Shown piece by piece: positions 13,538-19,346 of a stretch of 64,000 bases of DNA. The position numbers and the translations under genes were made by a program. How positions within the stretch are numbered: the first letter of the stretch is position 1; each line of letters begins with the position of its first letter. Source of the DNA: Psilocybe cubensis (taxonomy: Eukaryota); NCBI GenBank assembly GCA_017499595.2, contig CM039008.1, forward strand, positions 1,178,001 to 1,242,000. The letters run 5' to 3'. Under the pieces are notes generated by a model. The model saw only the letters and a program-made list of their open reading frames with translations, did no database searches and was not told the origin of the DNA.

Positions 13538-15353
13538 TTAATCCTGAGTCAGATCAATAACATTGGATGTAGATTGAATGTTCGAGACCTCGGTCTCGTC
13601 AGTCAAATCAATGACCTCAAAATGCCGAATGGAATTGTTTTGTTCTTCCATCGTGGAGCTGCTGCTGCTGGGTCTGCGCCTTCGACTGGGATTTATCTTC
13701 ATTCTTGTTACGGATTGAGAACCTGAGCAAGTGGTTAGTAGTATACAATGTGTAGGTCAGTTAGATAAAACTACCTTCGACTGTAGTATGTAACTCCTGG
13801 GGCAAAATACTCCGAGGAACCCAGACTCGAAATTGGTCAACCTCATTGGATTGGTTTGAGTGGAAACCCATCAATGTGACGAAGTTCTGAGCCGACACAA
13901 GCAATCGGGCATGTAACTCTGAAGCGTTGGGTTGTACACAGCCTTTGCGCTTGAGCAATTTACAGGTCAGAACCAAAGCTTGGGTATTTGGCGTAGCGAA
14001 AAGTTTCCGGGAAGAGTCGTATAATATGAGGGGCTAGAAGCAGCATGAGACCTTGTTTTGCACTCGTAAATGTGAATAGATGACTTACAGAATAAAGCAT
14101 TTGAAGAAAAATACCCTCCCAAACCTTGGCTTTGAACCTTTTCCTGAGTACATCCTCGGATCGCCATCCCAAGTGTGTCGACGAAACATCAATTAGGCCG
14201 GGAACTGATGGCTCTTGTAAAATCCACGGTTGAAATTTTTGACCTGGGGCAGAAGTTAGTGGATTCAAGTAAAGATCAAGAATGTCAAGGTCGGGGAAAG
14301 ATTCTGTGAGACGTTCGGACAGGACAGGTGAACGGCTATGTAGATGGCCATGGGAATTTGTCAATAATTCATGCTTGATTTCTGTGCGCCAGTGGTTGAG
14401 AAAATCCTGAAGAGCAACACCGCTTAACGTCTGGAATGCTTTGACAAGCTGATCCCCAAATCCGCACGATGCAAGAGCATGTGCATGGGACGGCCCAAAT
14501 CCTTTGAGACCCGCGCAATCGTAATCGCCACCACAGACTAGGGCAAATAAAACAAGTCCACCGGATGTTAATCCTAAATCCAAAAGATGCGAGTACGTGT
14601 AGGCAATCATTTCATCTTCAAAATGTCTTTCCTTGGTTGGAATGCTAATAAAATTTGATGTTCAATATCCAGTATACTGAGCAAGTTTGAAGAATGTTCT
14701 TACGTGCGGTATACTGTTTGTGCGCCAAAGACAAAAACATCACTATCGTTAGTGATGATTCCATCAATCAATCCTCTACGGTTTAGCATAGCTAATTCCG
14801 CTTCAGCCTCTCCGGGCGCCTATTTTGGAGTTAATATTAAATACAATTACACAGACAGCATGCAATACCTGGTGTATGTGATATCCGAATGCCCGAATGA
14901 TATCTTTAGATGGATTGGTCCAAAATGGGCTTTGGTTTACACGAACATTAGTCCCGCGTTTTATGAGAGGTCGACCAGGGCCATCATAAACAAATACTAG
15001 AGTCAAGGGATATTTGATGAATTCACACATTTTCATGAATAGAATGTGCAGTGCACCGCCATAGAATTGGCCACTGATTGTTGGTCCCTGTAGTGCTGCA
15101 ACACACTCGCTCATAAGTGTGCTTTTGATTCTAATTAAGACTAATAGATCAAAATTTTAAACCATGAAATACCTTATATCAACCCCAAGCTTCATCGCAA
15201 TTTTTCCGGAACTCTCTCGATGGTCAAGAGCAGTAGAGAGAATTGAGATCCTGCTTTCCGCTTCTTTGATTGTCTGTAGTAGCCAACTCAGCACACCAAG
15301 ACTCAGACATGACATTGAATGGTTCTTACTGGCCATAACCCATTAATTCCCAT
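13538..15353 (-). CDS. XPG/Rad2-family nuclease, GEN1/Yen1-like Holliday-junction resolvase; multi-exon
   Basis: MGINGLWP start; LGVDIS; VFVYDGPGRP..KRG; APGEAEAELAML; ITNDSDVFVFGA; H2TH motif GGDYDCAGLKGFG..AHALASCGFG; RVWVPRS C-terminal motif; two terminal VIDLT motifs; exons join in frame. Confidence 0.85.
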
Positions 15354-15535
15354 TGTCAATTATCAACTTGTCAATGTGATTTGCCGCTGTGTTGTGTGTA
15401 TGGATAAAAGAGATGTCAAATAACTCAGATTGGATTGTTGATATAAGAGTATGACCATTGTATTATGAGACTTCTCAAACTAAGTTACGTGCGGGCTCAA
15501 TACTACTAAGTAAGGTTACACTGTCATCGATTACA

Positions 15536-18500
15536 CTATGCTGATGGTTCAACTAAATTTTTTGTGCGCCTCCTTGGAGCAACTGGTGCTTGCCGTTTTT
15601 TTCTACCGATGGGCGGCTCTGTAGATACACTTTGAGTGCTATTGGAGTTTGTGCTTTGAACACTAGCAGATATTACCTAAAATTGAATTTAGAGGTGGTC
15701 AGAAGTTTGTTTTAAAATATGCGTACATCTTTTGATGCTTGCGCCTTTGCTATGCGTTGTGCATAGATTTCATCAGTGATTGCTGAGAGTCCCTTCACTC
15801 TGCCATTGCCCCCTGTAGCAGATTTTTCAAGCTCTTCGATTACAATTTGTGGGGATACACCACGTAAAGTAGACTCGGAATGAATAAACTCCGGAATTTT
15901 GCGAAAGCGCTGCCACGCCTTACGTGCCTAGTATACAAAAGGAAAGGATTAAACCATGTATACAGCTCGAAAAAGATAATTAAACCATACTGCTGGTTTA
16001 GTTCGCCATGCTGACTGAAAGTGCAGCTCAACTTGCTGAAGTGGAGGCTTGATACCTGTCTGAGTACCCGAAGCATTAAAAACCGGCTCGCCAGAATTGT
16101 AACATGTCCACTGTTCATTGAGTGTATATTTGTTAAGGGTCTTTGATGGACACCATGCATCCCATAACAGTTCGGGTCGCTTGATAAGTCTAAAGACTTG
16201 CTCCCACGTCACTGATTTCTGACCAAGAACAGGCGGCCAAAACAGTTGTGGTCCACCTAATGTGTGGCCATAGATTTATTAGCATTCAGACAATAGTAGT
16301 GTTAGAAACATAAGACGGCACACCAGGGTTTGAGAAAGCGTCAACATGGGGCAATACAAGATCAACTTGTGTCCGCGAACGGGATTCAGAAGAAACCTTT
16401 GGTGATCCATTTGCAAAGGCGCGAAGTGGGCTTCCCGGTTGTTTGCTATCATTTGGAGCATTCAAAACATAAATTCCCGTATCATCGCTATTTTTAGTAG
16501 CACTATGACCGGCAGATTTGTTAGCCAGTGGACTCTCTGGCACAGCTAGCGTAAATACAGGTTGCGGGACTATAGTTGAAAAATCAATTCACAGAAATAT
16601 ATCAATAGCAAGTTAAGTCAAGATACCTTTGGAGACGTTTAAACTATGTTGATATGACAAATTTGAGAATCCCTTGGTTGGAGAAAGAACATCAGTACGG
16701 CGCTGAATTAAAAGACGCATTTCCTTCAATTCTGCTGCCTGGGTTGCTAAAAGCGCCCTCATTTCTTCAAGAGATAGGCGAAGAAGGTTGTTTTGTATAC
16801 GTTCCAAATCCACTGTACTTCCTGCGTTAGCTTGTAAGTGAGCAAGGCTTGTTGGATACTCGGTTTTCATCCAGTGTTGGACCTGGGGATTTGCTAAAGC
16901 TGGAAGCCGAAATAATGCGGATTCAGGATACTTCTGGTAAATTGCAGCACCACACTACAATATATATGAGTGATGAGTAGCAAAGATAACAAAGAGCAAA
17001 CCTGGAATAAATATGGGCGGAGCGATATTACCATTGCCCAATAATTGGCTGCACCCGACAAATTGGCTCTTCCCACAATTTTGGCATGAATATCCTCGGC
17101 GATAGGGCATACCAAGTTTAAAAATGCCTCTGGAACATGGACACGTCGCCACAGAGGGTCATATACTTCATGTGTTTTGTATCCATGAGCACCGAGAACG
17201 GCCTAGAAAACGGTGTAAGAGAAAAAACCATAACATGTCATAACAAAAATACCTCTTTTGGAATTGCTGGAGCGTATGTATCAAAGTATGTTTCACCACG
17301 AACCCATCCCAATCTTGATGTGTGTACCCCATCGACGCTAATTGATTTGACAAGTTAACAATCATGATTTGAGATATACGTTCAACCAAGTTCACCTACC
17401 CCATCTTCTCTTGGCTATAACCAAGAATATGGCGAGGAAGGTGAGCCTTGATTTTTGAAATAAAATTGGCCTGTGAGAAGGCCTTGACGTAAAGGTTATA
17501 CAAACTCTGTTCGTGGTAAGGGGTTGTTGGAGAAGTCTTGCCATGCAAAACACGGACTTGTCTCCAACTTTTGTTGATTGACCAATCAACATCAAGTTCT
17601 TCGGTAAGCTTCTTTACATCATGGATGAAATGATGATAAAACGCAAAGGCACCGAGCGGGCATATTGTTGGATCTTTATGTGCAATAAATACTGTGTAAA
17701 CCGGATTAACTTTTGTATGCAATCCACGGTTAGCAGCAGCTTTCTCTTCGCCTTGAAGTCCCAGGACACATTCAACTGCAGTTTCTTTATTGGGGTGAAG
17801 AAAAACATATGGTTGTAGTTCCGCAAGTTTGAGTGCACGAAAGTCGTCTCCTCGATTCCCAGAAGCATTTTGGGCTGCCCATGCAAGATGTCCATTAATG
17901 ACAGATCGCACTTGGAAGATCTCATCAAGCTCAACCCAAAGTGAATTGTCTTGGATGGAAAAACTCACATTCCCGATGCATCAAAAACCCTCCACCTATT
18001 TTGGCCATTTGCTCTTCGGTTACACTTGCCAGAAACGTGTTGGCAACAATATCAGGAGCATCCTCTCCTGGAATTAAGCCACTGATTCCTGGATAAGAAC
18101 TCTGTCAAGATTATACAAAAAATAACACTCACTTTCGACTACGATTTAAGGCTTCATTCATCCTTCCTTTTATACAGTCCCAAACGTGAATAGACTTAGC
18201 GGGCCGAGTTTTTTCAAGTGTTGGATCGAGGGCCTCTTGCATTTTTCGAATCCGTAATGCACCAAAGTAGAGTTTCTTCAACTGGGACTAGATAGTATGA
18301 GTGACAGTTCACGATCTGTTACTGGTGAAACTTACAGCACCAAGATAAGTACCTGGAATATCAAGACCCTTGCGAGTACGCTTTGGACGCTCTGCTGAAT
18401 GTCGAATATACAGGAGCAGATGATGACAGTCAACTATGTCATCTTGAATTTCACCCTTGTCCAATGCTTGGCGACAAAACATCTAGAATACATGAGCTGA

Positions 18501-19346
18501 GTACAGCTTTAGCAAAACATGATACCATACCTTCCAGTCTCTTACAACTGCCGACTGTGTTTTTACGCCACCTGCTCGTCGATTTTTCTCCGATCTTTTA
18601 GCCTCGTCAACCCGTGTCTGAGTAACAAATTGTTCAAAGTCATCGCTAGTATCCATGATGTCGTCTTCATTGTTGTCGAGATCTTCTCCAAATTCATCAT
18701 CCTCATCAAGTAACTCATTGTCCTCGTCGTATCCTAGTATTTCATCAGCTGCTGCACCTTCAACCGAAAAGTGTGAAATAAGAGCTCCATCGTCAATGAT
18801 ATTGTGGGATTGTGCGGAAAGATGTTGATCTTTAATGTCAGCTTGATTTTCGGTGGCTTCATTCACAGTATTGATAGTAGTAGGTGCAGTATCGGCACTG
18901 CTATCCAGCGGAAACCTATCAAACAGAAGTCAATAAAAAGGATCAACTACCACAAACTGAAAAATATACCGACCAGTATAATTTGAGAGCTGAACGAAGG
19001 CGCTCTAAATTAGCACTTTTAGGGACTGAAAGATGGAGGTTGCTGCATGCTTCCCTCAAACGCTCTTTCCGTCGTATAGTGTCACTAAAAGAAACATCAA
19101 CAAGTCAAATTTGGTTGAGAAAAAGAAACCATACAGTGCTGCAGAGTACTCTTCAAGAGTTGAGACAACTGTGCCATCCAAGGTCCGGGATGGATAAAGC
19201 AAATCATTGTGTTCAGAAAGTAGGGGATCAGGCTCAAAAGAAGTACCATCCATGAGTATGTAGACAGGCTGTTAGCGAGGAAAAATAAGAAAGAGCGAAA
19301 ACATAAAATGCAAGTTATATGCTTCAACGGGTGGCCCAAGTTTCAT
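15536..19346 (-). CDS. Crypton tyrosine recombinase (NDC10-II-like YR domain, N-terminal SAP-like helix pair, C-terminal GCR1_C-like domain); multi-exon; start at 19346 via a GC-AG intron, or at 19253
   Basis: SGNRGDDFR (catalytic R), HKDPTICPLGAFAFY, KAHLPRH (HxxR), RLGW..ETYFDTYAP (W/Y). C-terminal QWTCYNSG..PPLQQVELHFQSAWR..RKAWQRFRKIPEFI resembles GCR1_C. Confidence 0.85.

What the first reader, a model, noticed from the sequence alone, without database searches (positions are those of the whole stretch)
13538..19346. Crypton tyrosine recombinase paired with its own GEN1/Yen1-like Holliday-junction resolvase
Seen: a spliced YR gene with intact R, HxxR, W and Y residues is followed ~180 bp after its stop codon, on the same strand, by an XPG-family gene with all acidic catalytic motifs (VD, YDG, EAEAE, DSD, GGDY). 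Known: tyrosine recombinases work through Holliday-junction intermediates, GEN1/Yen1 cut such junctions, and described Cryptons usually encode only the YR. Inference: this is a two-gene mobile module in which a captured resolvase processes recombination or replication intermediates, or resolves circles. I do not know of this pairing having been described.
Basis: partly seen in the sequence, partly recalled or inferred. Interest (0 to 1): 0.85.

Follow-up and report, generated by a model that had tools for sequence, protein, structure and literature searches.

The report
Crypton transposon carrying its own resolvase
An 8.3-kb jumping gene in a Psilocybe cubensis genome carries, besides its tyrosine recombinase, its own copy of a Holliday-junction-cutting nuclease derived from the fungal YEN1 gene, a pairing that recurs in many mushrooms and that I could not find described in print.

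Summary
On the minus strand lie an intact 13-exon CryptonF-type tyrosine recombinase (YR) gene (19253-15712) and, 358 bp (not ~180 bp) downstream, a separate 7-exon XPG/GEN1-like gene (15353-13538) with all acidic motifs.

Both genes sit inside an 8,266-bp unit (12236-20501). Assemblies of two other runs with the same species label lack exactly this unit, leaving one copy of the 7-bp repeat TCGTTCT that flanks it here.

Its ends (GGAGACCCC... and ...CGCTATAGAAC, with GTSAC clusters) recur in two metagenome contigs. These carry the same YR-then-nuclease order and have unrelated flanks on the nuclease side.

The same order appears in 17 of 120 listed YR homologues from nine Agaricales species. 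YR and nuclease distances co-vary (r = 0.84).

In trees the nuclease falls in a short, fast-evolving clade, separate from canonical GEN1_C-bearing Yen1 and next to Agaricomycete Yen1. A homologue's model superposes on fungal GEN1, chromodomain included (Z 33.7).

So it is not the host YEN1 but a captured derivative travelling with the element. That it resolves junctions during transposition is inference.

Some clade members sit beside a different unknown gene. No paper in the searched library pairs Crypton with XPG.

Verdict: a new variant of a known kind.

The parts
12236..20501 (-). Whole mobile unit (8,266 bp): a CryptonF-type element with its genes on the minus strand
   Evidence: Contigs of runs X7 and X9 join 12235 directly to 20502 (table 8: X7 record 4, X9 record 14). 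X13 raw reads cover the unit at flank-like depth.
12236..12242 (.). TCGTTCT, left copy of the 7-bp direct repeat (probable crossover or microhomology site)
   Evidence: Sequence read. The empty site in X7 and X9 keeps one copy.
20502..20508 (.). TCGTTCT, right copy of the 7-bp direct repeat (belongs to the flank in the alignment)
   Evidence: Sequence read; joint.
12238..12279 (-). Nuclease-side terminus. Read on the minus strand: GTGAC-N11-GTCAC-AGGGAGTT-CGCTATAGAAC, then flank.
   Evidence: The 11-mer CGCTATAGAAC occurs 3 times in 401 kb (0.19 expected). Each hit lies at an element end: window, L003, L011. The 42-bp piece also occurs elsewhere in runs X7, X10 and X13, with other flanks (tables 7 and 8).
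20413..20501 (-). YR-side terminus. The minus strand begins GGAGACCCCAGTGG, followed by four GTSAC motifs.
   Evidence: L003 has GGAGACCCCGATGG at 3865, followed by four GTSAC motifs within 60 bp, upstream of its YR.
15712..19253 (-). Tyrosine recombinase gene: 13 exons, about 960 aa, YR core plus a weak GCR1_C-like C-terminal region; stop at 15714-15712
15354..15711 (-). 358-bp spacer between the YR stop and the nuclease ATG
   Evidence: The public model splices across it (donor about 15724, acceptor 15273), which drops the conserved nuclease N-terminus.
13538..15353 (-). GEN1/Yen1-derived XPG-family nuclease gene: 7 exons, about 497 aa; C-terminal tail with two VIDLT motifs
   Evidence: the fold of homologue P0273.
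12551..13485 (+). Spliced plus-strand transcript inside the nuclease-side arm. Introns: 12580-12802, 12865-12921, 13021-13082, 13339-13396. Longest ORF only 88 aa.
   Evidence: Contigs of run X10 (its RNA status is a guess) with GT..AG joints (table 5); ORF scan; no relatives found.

Best explanation
Window 12236-20501 is an 8.3-kb CryptonF-type DNA transposon of Psilocybe cubensis.

SHOWN
- The whole unit is present in some runs and precisely absent in others of the same species label. It is bounded by the 7-bp direct repeat TCGTTCT, and the empty site keeps one copy.
- Its ends are conserved in distant relatives (5'-GGAGACCCC ... CGCTATAGAAC-3' in gene orientation) and are packed with GTSAC motifs.
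- It holds two intact same-strand genes. One is a tyrosine recombinase with a GCR1_C-like tail. The other, 358 bp downstream, is a separate ~497-aa nuclease of the GEN1/Yen1 branch of the XPG family.
- The nuclease belongs to a short, fast-evolving clade that branches beside canonical Agaricomycete Yen1. This clade travels with Crypton recombinases in at least four genera, and nuclease and recombinase distances track each other.

INFERRED
- The recombinase binds the GTSAC clusters, pairs the two short repeats, and excises the element as a circle. It re-inserts the circle at sites sharing a few bases with its core.
- This chemistry passes through a Holliday junction.
- The element's own GEN1-like nuclease cuts junctions (or flaps and forks) that the recombinase cannot finish. 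An example is a case where the element core and the target differ within the overlap, which is known to stall the second strand exchange of tyrosine recombinases. The nuclease would thus complete excision or integration and widen the choice of targets.
For: Mobility and limits
- X7 record 4 (20,208 nt) aligns to 7000-12235 and runs straight on at 20502. X9 record 14 shows the same joint. Both have zero depth over 12706-20313 at 90% likeness or better.
- By index share, X1-X6 hold 0.93-0.99 of the stretch, and X7-X9 hold 0.11.
- TCGTTCT stands at 12236-12242 and 20502-20508.
- 10 of the element's 15 GTSAC motifs lie in its first 250 bp (6) or last 90 bp (4). The window background is 0.46 per 250 bp.

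Conserved ends with unrelated flanks
- L003 and L011 are 85-91% alike through the YR, the nuclease and about 2 kb beyond. Both end at GTGAC-N11-GTCAC-CGGGAGCC-CGCTATAGAAC and then diverge.
- The same 11-mer ends the window's insert.
- GGAGACCCC starts both the L003 element and the window element.

Recurrent linkage
- 17 of 120 listed YR homologues carry the nuclease C-terminal to the YR. They come from P. cubensis, five named Mycena species plus Mycena sp. CBHHK59/15, Favolaschia claudopus (7 models on 6 contig lengths) and Gymnopilus dilepis.
- 3 of 56 metagenome loci have a YR upstream on the same strand. 0 of 7 canonical-type loci with 3 kb or more upstream do.
- YR and nuclease distances correlate: r = 0.843 over 135 of 136 pairs, with 0 of 2000 Mantel permutations as high.

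Not the host YEN1
- 57 of 58 long representatives carry Pfam GEN1_C; P0001 has no such hit at E up to 1.
- FastTree on 162 rows puts all 57 long rows on one side and all 14 fused rows on the other (split support 88).
- IQ-TREE quick on 59 rows gives the short-plus-Crypton clade SH-aLRT 98 and canonical Agaricomycete Yen1 97; both lie within Basidiomycota (94).

GEN1-like nature
- The largest exon hits C. thermophilum GEN1 at E 1.1e-11, against 0.17 for FEN1.
- hhalign to the canonical Yen1 profile gives probability 100, E 9.7e-56.
- The model of homologue P0273 has pLDDT 88.6. Its best match is GEN1 (Foldseek E 4e-22).
- By VIA-align 2 (the in-house structural aligner), 6grd_A scores Z 33.7, with 390 of 407 residues aligned over model residues 2-452. 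XPG, Rad2 and FEN1 (Z 22-26.5) mostly stop near residue 360.
- The window's exon 14033-13770 aligns to that extra C-terminal domain.

Separate gene
- Stand-alone homologues start MGIxxLW, as window exon 1 does.
Against: - No activity, expression or circle was observed.
- In run X10 (RNA status is a guess) the YR and nuclease have depth 0-5, while the neighbouring catalase gene has about 450.
- The fold is of a homologue that is 36% identical to the window's main exon, not of the window's own protein.
- Pfam GEN1_C is not detected, and hhalign stops before that domain.
- The linkage is not universal. Of 8 short-clade metagenome loci with 2.3 kb or more upstream, 5 have no YR. Four of those 5 sit behind a different conserved unknown gene.
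- The two paralogous P. cubensis YR clusters (P0003, P0005) are annotated without a nuclease, and I could not inspect their neighbours.
- The distance correlation is partly species structure.
- The tree stars come from 'quick' and FastTree runs with long branches.
- An 8.3-kb loss between 7-bp repeats could in principle be a microhomology deletion. The conserved termini argue against this.
Confidence: 0.6

Rival explanations
1. The nuclease is cargo. It was captured from host YEN1 and is carried and kept by the element, but it is not needed for transposition. It might, for example, act on host DNA repair or on genome-defence structures, or be neutral.
For: Nothing here links it functionally to the recombinase. 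Relatives of the same clade occur without a Crypton YR nearby: 5 of 8 loci, four of them beside another gene. Some Cryptons carry other accessory genes, such as a C48 peptidase, a DDE transposase or an HTH protein (passages).
Against: Fixed order and strand are kept across four genera. Distances co-vary. All acidic motifs and the GEN1-type extra domain are retained despite fast evolution. A junction or flap nuclease is chemically matched to a recombinase that works through a Holliday junction.
Confidence: 0.2
2. The nuclease serves a replicative step rather than junction resolution. It would cut 5' flaps or fork-like structures while an excised circle or a nicked donor is copied. Transposition would then be copy-out rather than cut-out.
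For: GEN1/Yen1 enzymes also cut 5' flaps and replication forks (titles and abstracts listed, e.g. PMC5093310, PMC8754655). The XPG family core is a flap nuclease fold.
Against: The empty sites seen are exact, with one repeat copy left. That is what conservative excision, or never having been inserted, predicts. X13 depth shows a single copy. No evidence of replication intermediates.
Confidence: 0.12
3. The YR and the nuclease are one fusion protein made by splicing across the spacer, as the public gene models predict.
For: 17 public models join the two. The window has a usable GT donor about 10 nt before the YR stop, and the acceptor at 15273.
Against: The join needs a ~450-nt intron, where all other introns here are about 50-65 nt. 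It also drops the MGIxxLW N-terminus that stand-alone homologues keep. Several fused models skip the whole XPG_N region (P0008, P0021). The YR frame has its own stop.
Confidence: 0.05
4. Chance neighbours: the nuclease is the ordinary host YEN1 lying beside a Crypton.
For: Only the adjacency itself.
Against: The gene is absent, together with the YR, from two other runs of the same species label. It falls in a separate clade from canonical Yen1. The arrangement recurs in nine species and in metagenome contigs with shared termini.
Confidence: 0.02

Closest known systems
CryptonF elements (Goodwin et al. 2003; Kojima & Jurka 2011, PMC3212892, passages read)
   Same: Tyrosine recombinase with a GCR1_C-type C-terminal region. 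No terminal inverted or long direct repeats. Short direct repeats at the ends that match the target. Fungal host.
   Different: A second, conserved gene for a GEN1/Yen1-like nuclease. A 7-bp repeat here, against the 4-6 bp reported. 8.3-9.7 kb long. Conserved terminal sequences with GTSAC motif clusters. Accessory genes named in the passages I read are a DDE transposase (MarCry), a C48 peptidase and an HTH protein, not XPG.
Yen1/GEN1 Holliday-junction resolvases (C. thermophilum GEN1, PDB 5cnq/5co8/6grb-d; human GEN1, 5t9j)
   Same: XPG_I domain, all acidic motifs, helix-two-turn-helix region. A homologue's model superposes over the whole GEN1 crystal construct, including the domain after the nuclease core. 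A C-terminal [VI]IDLT motif is shared with Agaricomycete Yen1.
   Different: About 497 aa against 700-1000. No Pfam GEN1_C hit. Multi-copy, fast-evolving and inside a transposon. Absent from some strains.
Cryptons with other accessory genes (CryptonS with C48 peptidase; MarCry-1_FO with a DDE transposase)
   Same: A YR transposon carrying a second protein-coding gene.
   Different: The second gene here is a structure-selective nuclease whose substrate class is the recombinase's own reaction intermediate.
AcademX DNA transposons
   Same: A eukaryotic DNA transposon that encodes a nuclease beside its transposase (passage). That this nuclease is of the XPG family is my recollection; the primary paper, PMC7165386, is not held.
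   Different: Academ uses a DDE-type transposase and makes target-site duplications. Here the partner is a tyrosine recombinase.
Junction resolvases encoded by phages and poxviruses (RusA, T4 endonuclease VII, T7 endonuclease I, poxvirus A22); recalled, not tested here
   Same: A mobile or viral genome bringing its own enzyme for branched DNA.
   Different: Unrelated folds. They serve genome replication and packaging, not a YR transposition cycle.

Membership tests
Crypton (CryptonF group) | Encodes a tyrosine recombinase with the catalytic R, K, HxxR, H/W, Y residues | tested here: met
   R376, K413, H513, R516, W538 and Y548 are present and 93-99% conserved among homologues. NDC10_II scores 33.4 bits. 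Assignment of the residues to catalytic roles is from recall.
Crypton (CryptonF group) | GCR1_C DNA-binding domain C-terminal to the YR | tested here: inconclusive
   GCR1_C scores 21.0 bits, E 4.3e-4, below the 23.0 cut-off. Some homologues carry PF12550 in their precomputed Pfam domains.
Crypton (CryptonF group) | No TIRs or LTRs; short direct repeats at both ends that match the target | tested here: met
   No long terminal repeats. 7-bp TCGTTCT at both ends, with one copy in the empty site. L003 has an imperfect repeat, TAGGACCAT / TAGAACCTT.
Crypton (CryptonF group) | Mobility: presence/absence at a site, and copies with unrelated flanks | tested here: met
   Precise absence in X7 and X9. 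L003 and L011 share the element but not the flank beyond its nuclease-side end.
GEN1/Yen1 subfamily of XPG/Rad2 nucleases | XPG_N and XPG_I nuclease core with the conserved acidic residues | tested here: met
   XPG_I scores 68.3 bits. Motifs GVDIS, VYDG, GEAEAE, NDSD and GGDYD are read. XPG_N is not detected by Pfam in P0001, which lacks exon 1, but the homologue's model aligns from residue 2.
GEN1/Yen1 subfamily of XPG/Rad2 nucleases | Chromodomain-like domain directly after the nuclease core (Pfam GEN1_C) | tested here: inconclusive
   No Pfam GEN1_C hit at E up to 1, and hhalign ends before that domain. However, homologue P0273's model aligns with GEN1 over residues 2-452, while XPG, Rad2 and FEN1 mostly stop near 360. 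The window exon 14033-13770 aligns to that domain.
GEN1/Yen1 subfamily of XPG/Rad2 nucleases | Closer to GEN1/Yen1 than to FEN1, EXO1 or XPG | tested here: met
   By PDB sequence search, GEN1 scores 1.1e-11 against FEN1 0.17. By Foldseek, 4e-22 against 2e-15 or weaker. It groups with Basidiomycota Yen1; FEN1, EXO1 and XPG sequences were not included in that tree.
GEN1/Yen1 subfamily of XPG/Rad2 nucleases | Symmetric cleavage of four-way junctions | not testable with these tools
   Needs purified protein and junction substrates.
Host YEN1 orthologue (single-copy, syntenic) | One conserved copy at a fixed locus, clustering with species' canonical Yen1 | tested here: not met
   Absent, with the element, from X7 and X9. 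It lies outside the canonical clade. Many copies per genome exist in relatives. Whether P. cubensis also has a canonical YEN1 was not shown.

The most novel reading that the evidence does not exclude
YEN1-derived short nucleases are a portable accessory module of mushroom mobile elements, recruited by at least two unrelated partners: the Crypton recombinase, and the unknown ~4-kb gene upstream in L002, L005, L009 and L010. In Cryptons the module lets a tyrosine recombinase finish recombination at targets that match its core only partly, by cutting the stalled Holliday junction. This would be the first eukaryotic transposon found to supply its own junction resolvase.
Probability: 0.25. Interest if true: 0.85.

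Novelty: new variant of a known kind. Interest (0 to 1): 0.7.

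Why it matters
How Cryptons move has never been shown at the bench. The model of circle excision and site-specific re-insertion rests on sequence anatomy.

This element offers three handles on that question:
- exact ends;
- a recent presence/absence difference between strains;
- a second enzyme aimed at the very intermediate the recombinase makes.

It makes testable how a tyrosine recombinase can insert into many imperfectly matching sites. 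It also shows a host repair gene (YEN1) being captured and kept by a transposon across Agaricales.

On the practical side, dozens of public 'XPG-I / Ndc10 domain' fusion proteins in mushroom genomes are probably mis-joined models of two transposon genes.

Tried and rejected
- Whole genome of the window: not held. Copy number and the neighbours of the paralogous YRs P0003 and P0005 could not be examined.
- Pfam on single exons found only NDC10_II; the nuclease exons were too fragmented.
- A word-index search with the nuclease exon ('longer') found only 3 proteins.
- A profile search listed no stand-alone P. cubensis nuclease and no canonical P. cubensis Yen1. With 8000 candidates scored and 108 hits, this is no evidence of absence.
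- Complex prediction on the YR core (residues 195-660) against the nuclease (960-1448): verdict 'no answer', score 0.00. My alignments were not used.
- RNA: no RNA holder was listed for the stretch.
- The search of earlier findings returned nothing by place, by words or by sequence.
It was repeated with the closer alignment A7.
- Protein Atlas on the unknown gene upstream in L009 gave only unnamed clusters, and Pfam gave nothing.
- The left-arm transcript and the 1.2 kb upstream of the YR have no relatives among the fetched proteins or loci.
- No convincing inverted repeat around TCGTTCT was seen by eye in the inferred circle junction.
- The AcademH paper (PMC7165386) is not held.
- Paper supplements and Repbase were not available. 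They could hold Crypton consensus entries that already list this gene.

Full report
**What is in the window**

The window matches a public Psilocybe cubensis protein model exactly. P0001 (UniRef A0A8H8CI32_PSICU, 1448 aa) is 100% identical to the largest recombinase exon.

Mapping P0001 back onto the window places every exon on the minus strand:
- 13 exons for a tyrosine recombinase (YR), 19253 down to 15727. The frame runs on to its own stop at 15714-15712.
- 6 exons for an XPG-family nuclease, 15273 down to 13541.

Reading the DNA shows that the nuclease also has its own start:
- ATG at 15353.
- An 8-codon first exon (MGINGLWP).
- A 56-nt GT..AG intron (15329-15274) that opens in frame onto exon 2.

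Stand-alone homologues begin MGIHSLW, MGITGLW, MGVHSLW and the like. So these are two genes separated by 358 bp. The public fusion model, which needs a ~450-nt intron and drops that N-terminus, is probably a prediction artefact.

Pfam on P0001:

| Domain | Bits | Cut-off |
|---|---|---|
| XPG_I | 68.3 | 24.9 |
| NDC10_II | 33.4 | 26.3 |
| GCR1_C | 21.0 (E 4e-4) | 23.0 |

The YR residues R376, K413, H513, R516, W538 and Y548 are present and 93-99% conserved among the homologues that cover them. Four of them are invariant in a 32-sequence alignment.

The nuclease shows GVDIS, VYDGPGRP, APGEAEAELA, NDSD and GGDYD.

**The two genes lie in one mobile unit**

No genome is held for this window, so I used public runs. 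Six runs hold 0.93-0.99 of the sampled words of 11800-21700. Three others, with the same coded species label as two of the holders, hold 0.11.

I laid four runs on 7000-26000 at 90% likeness:
- A 20,208-nt contig of X7 aligns to 7000-12235 and continues without a gap at 20502.
- An 897-nt contig of X9, from another study, shows the same joint.
- Both runs have zero depth across 12706-20313.
- Raw reads of X13 cover the segment at about the depth of its flanks, so the unit is single-copy there.

The absent segment, 12236-20501 (8,266 bp), is bounded by TCGTTCT at 12236-12242 and 20502-20508. The empty site keeps one copy.

There are no long terminal repeats. The pentamer GTSAC is concentrated at the ends: of 15 copies in the element, 6 are in the first 250 bp and 4 in the last 90 bp. 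The window background is 0.46 per 250 bp.

The left-terminal 42 bp (12238-12279) also occurs elsewhere, in runs that lack this copy. In X13 its flanks are heterogeneous: 99 reads, agreement 0.45.

**The same element elsewhere, with the same ends**

A metagenome scan with a short-clade nuclease alignment returned 56 loci. A Crypton YR was found in 3 of them: L003, L011 and L032. In each it lies upstream of the nuclease on the same strand.

L003 and L011 are 85-91% alike through the YR, the nuclease and about 2 kb beyond. Both stop being alike right after GTGAC-N11-GTCAC-CGGGAGCC-CGCTATAGAAC, and their flanks then differ.

The 11-mer CGCTATAGAAC occurs three times in the 401 kb I held (0.19 expected). 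The third hit is the reverse complement of window 12238-12248, exactly at the insert boundary. It is preceded there by GTGAC-N11-GTCAC-AGGGAGTT.

At the other end, L003 has GGAGACCCCGATGG followed by four GTSAC motifs within 60 bp, about 400 bp upstream of its YR. The window's element begins GGAGACCCCAGTGG.

These elements are distant from the window's. L003's best YR match among my queries is 37% identical, and its nuclease matches at 33%. Conserved termini enclosing both genes are therefore strong evidence that the nuclease is part of the element.

In L003 the bounding repeat is imperfect (TAGGACCAT / TAGAACCTT). This fits recombination at partly matching sites. The 2026 Glomhopper paper describes this for Cryptons as microhomology with the target rather than true duplication (passages).

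**How widespread the linkage is**

Of the 120 listed YR homologues (131 passed E 1e-3 among 587 candidates), 17 carry a nuclease part C-terminal to the YR:

| Species | Models |
|---|---|
| P. cubensis | 1 |
| Mycena alexandri | 1 |
| M. venus | 2 |
| M. latifolia | 1 |
| M. filopes | 1 |
| M. leptocephala | 1 |
| Mycena sp. CBHHK59/15 | 1 |
| Favolaschia claudopus | 7 (6 different contig lengths) |
| Gymnopilus dilepis | 2 |

These are only the cases where gene callers merged the two genes. Across the 17, YR and nuclease distances correlate (r = 0.843 over 135 of 136 pairs; 0 of 2000 Mantel permutations as high). Examples:
- The odd Favolaschia copy P0075 is far from its six genome-mates in both genes.
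- The window's nearest relatives in both genes are the Gymnopilus copies.

Part of this signal is species structure.

**Evidence against universal linkage**

- Among 8 short-clade metagenome loci with at least 2.3 kb upstream, only 3 have a YR.
- L002, L005, L009 and L010 instead share a different conserved same-strand gene of about 4 kb. It has no Pfam hit and no likeness to the YR or to the window.
- L016 has neither.
- Loci whose best match is a canonical basidiomycete or ascomycete Yen1, with at least 3 kb upstream, have a YR in 0 of 7 cases. An intermediate group has a YR in 0 of 3.

**What the nuclease is**

The 233-aa exon finds 1514 representatives at E up to 1e-3. Of the 58 listed representatives of 600 aa or more, 57 carry Pfam GEN1_C; these are canonical Yen1. 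P0001 has no GEN1_C hit at E up to 1.

Trees:
- FastTree used 162 of 169 matched sequences. Seven lacked coverage, among them the fused models P0021, P0059, P0071 and P0101. All 57 long rows fall on one side with 17 short ones. All 14 fused rows fall on the other side with 74 short ones (split support 88).
- IQ-TREE 'quick' used 59 chosen rows and 435 columns, rooted on a chytrid sequence with a long branch. It gives one clade of all 25 short and 11 Crypton-linked rows (SH-aLRT 98). This clade sits beside a clade of 14 canonical Agaricomycete Yen1 (97) and a smut sequence, all within a Basidiomycota group (94) apart from Ascomycota.

This is the pattern expected if a basidiomycete YEN1 was copied into the element lineage.

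Both canonical Agaricomycete Yen1 and the element nucleases end in [VI]IDLT; the window has two VIDLT. That this motif resembles a SUMO-interaction motif is my recollection.

By sequence, the exon is closest in the PDB to Chaetomium thermophilum GEN1 (1.1e-11) and far from FEN1 (0.17). hhalign aligns P0001 981-1314 to the canonical profile (probability 100, E 9.7e-56) but stops before the GEN1_C region.

I could not fold the window's own spliced protein, so I folded the full-length homologue P0273 with a 32-row alignment (pLDDT 88.6, pTM 0.86):
- Foldseek's best matches are GEN1 structures (4e-22), then XPG/Rad2 (1e-15 or weaker) and FEN1.
- VIA-align 2 (the in-house structural aligner) gives 6grd_A a Z of 33.7 with 390 of 407 residues aligned, over model residues 2-452.
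- Human GEN1 aligns over residues 2-455 (Z 25.8).
- XPG, Rad2 and FEN1 (Z 22-26.5) mostly end near residue 360.

So the extra beta-rich domain after the core matches the GEN1-specific domain. The window's exon 14033-13770 aligns to it.

**How it most likely works**

Shown:
- a bounded, polymorphic element with conserved ends;
- an intact YR;
- an intact GEN1-type nuclease that has travelled with such YRs for a long time.

Inferred:
- The YR, with its GCR1_C-like region, binds the GTSAC clusters and recombines the short repeats to excise a circle and restore the site. It then inserts the circle at sites sharing a few bases with the core.
- The nuclease cuts branched intermediates that the YR leaves. 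The most attractive case is a Holliday junction stalled because element and target differ within the overlap.

Rivals are listed with odds in their own section:
- the nuclease is mere cargo;
- it serves a replicative step;
- the two genes make a true fusion protein.

Chance adjacency to host YEN1 is contradicted.

**What is known**

- No paper in the searched library holds both 'Crypton' and 'XPG'.
- Four papers hold 'Crypton' and 'Holliday junction'. By title, none concerns a Crypton-borne resolvase; I saw the listing only.
- Kojima & Jurka 2011 describe CryptonF as encoding one protein with YR and GCR1_C. They list a C48 peptidase and a DDE transposase as extra genes in other Cryptons (passages).
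- The 2026 Glomhopper paper lists DDE, C48 and HTH as the facultative second genes (passage).
- AcademX transposons encode a nuclease (passage). That it is XPG-type is recalled.
- Repbase and supplements were not visible.

I rate this a new variant of a known kind.

**Other context**

- The element sits about 500 bp upstream of a minus-strand catalase gene (Pfam; spliced contigs).
- In run X10, whose RNA status is a guess, the YR and nuclease have depth 0-5. A spliced plus-strand transcript inside the element's nuclease-side arm has depth 160-260. Its longest ORF is 88 aa, and it has no relatives in what I held.

Noticed in passing
window 12551-13485 (+): A spliced plus-strand transcript with four GT..AG introns lies inside the element's nuclease-side arm. 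Its depth is 160-260 in run X10 (RNA status guessed). The longest ORF is only 88 aa, and it has no relatives among the fetched sequences. It might be a small protein or a non-coding RNA of the element.
   Followed up: partly
L002, L005, L009, L010 (e.g. L009 1300-6100, nuclease at 6603-7900): Short-clade Yen1-like nuclease genes in metagenome contigs follow a different conserved same-strand gene of about 4 kb. That gene has no Pfam hit and no likeness to Crypton YRs. It may mark a second kind of element using the same nuclease module.
   Followed up: partly
L009 8190-8642 (+); window 13541-13717 (-): The nuclease tails carry repeated [VI][IV]DLT motifs: about seven in the L009 reading frame and two in the window. 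Canonical Agaricomycete Yen1 proteins also end in IDLT. The resemblance to SUMO-interaction motifs is recalled, not tested.
   Followed up: no
window 23387 to beyond 26000: A high-copy repeat starts sharply at 23387. Contig depth is 250-660 against 21-36 in the flanks, and X13 depth is about 550-600 against about 30-60. It includes an ORF (24306-24794, minus strand) with a weak DUF6532 hit (23.2 bits, cut-off 24).
   Followed up: partly
window 12238-12279: The 42-bp nuclease-side terminus occurs elsewhere in runs that lack this copy (X7 record 5, depth 49 against 21). In X13 it has heterogeneous flanks (99 reads, agreement 0.45). This suggests further related elements or solo ends in the species.
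   Followed up: partly
window 6900-11740 and 27488-29580: Ordinary host genes flank the element: an MTR4-like helicase (+), a catalase (-; exons at 10085-10546 and 11148-11573, highly covered in X10) and an SPT5 homologue (-).
   Followed up: partly
public protein models P0001, P0008, P0010, P0012, P0014, P0016, P0017, P0019, P0021, P0022, P0059, P0071, P0075, P0096, P0101, P0106, P0108: These database entries, annotated as 'XPG-I domain-containing' or 'Ndc10 domain-containing' proteins, join a Crypton recombinase to the downstream nuclease. Several skip the nuclease N-terminal domain, so they are probably mis-merged gene models.
   Followed up: partly
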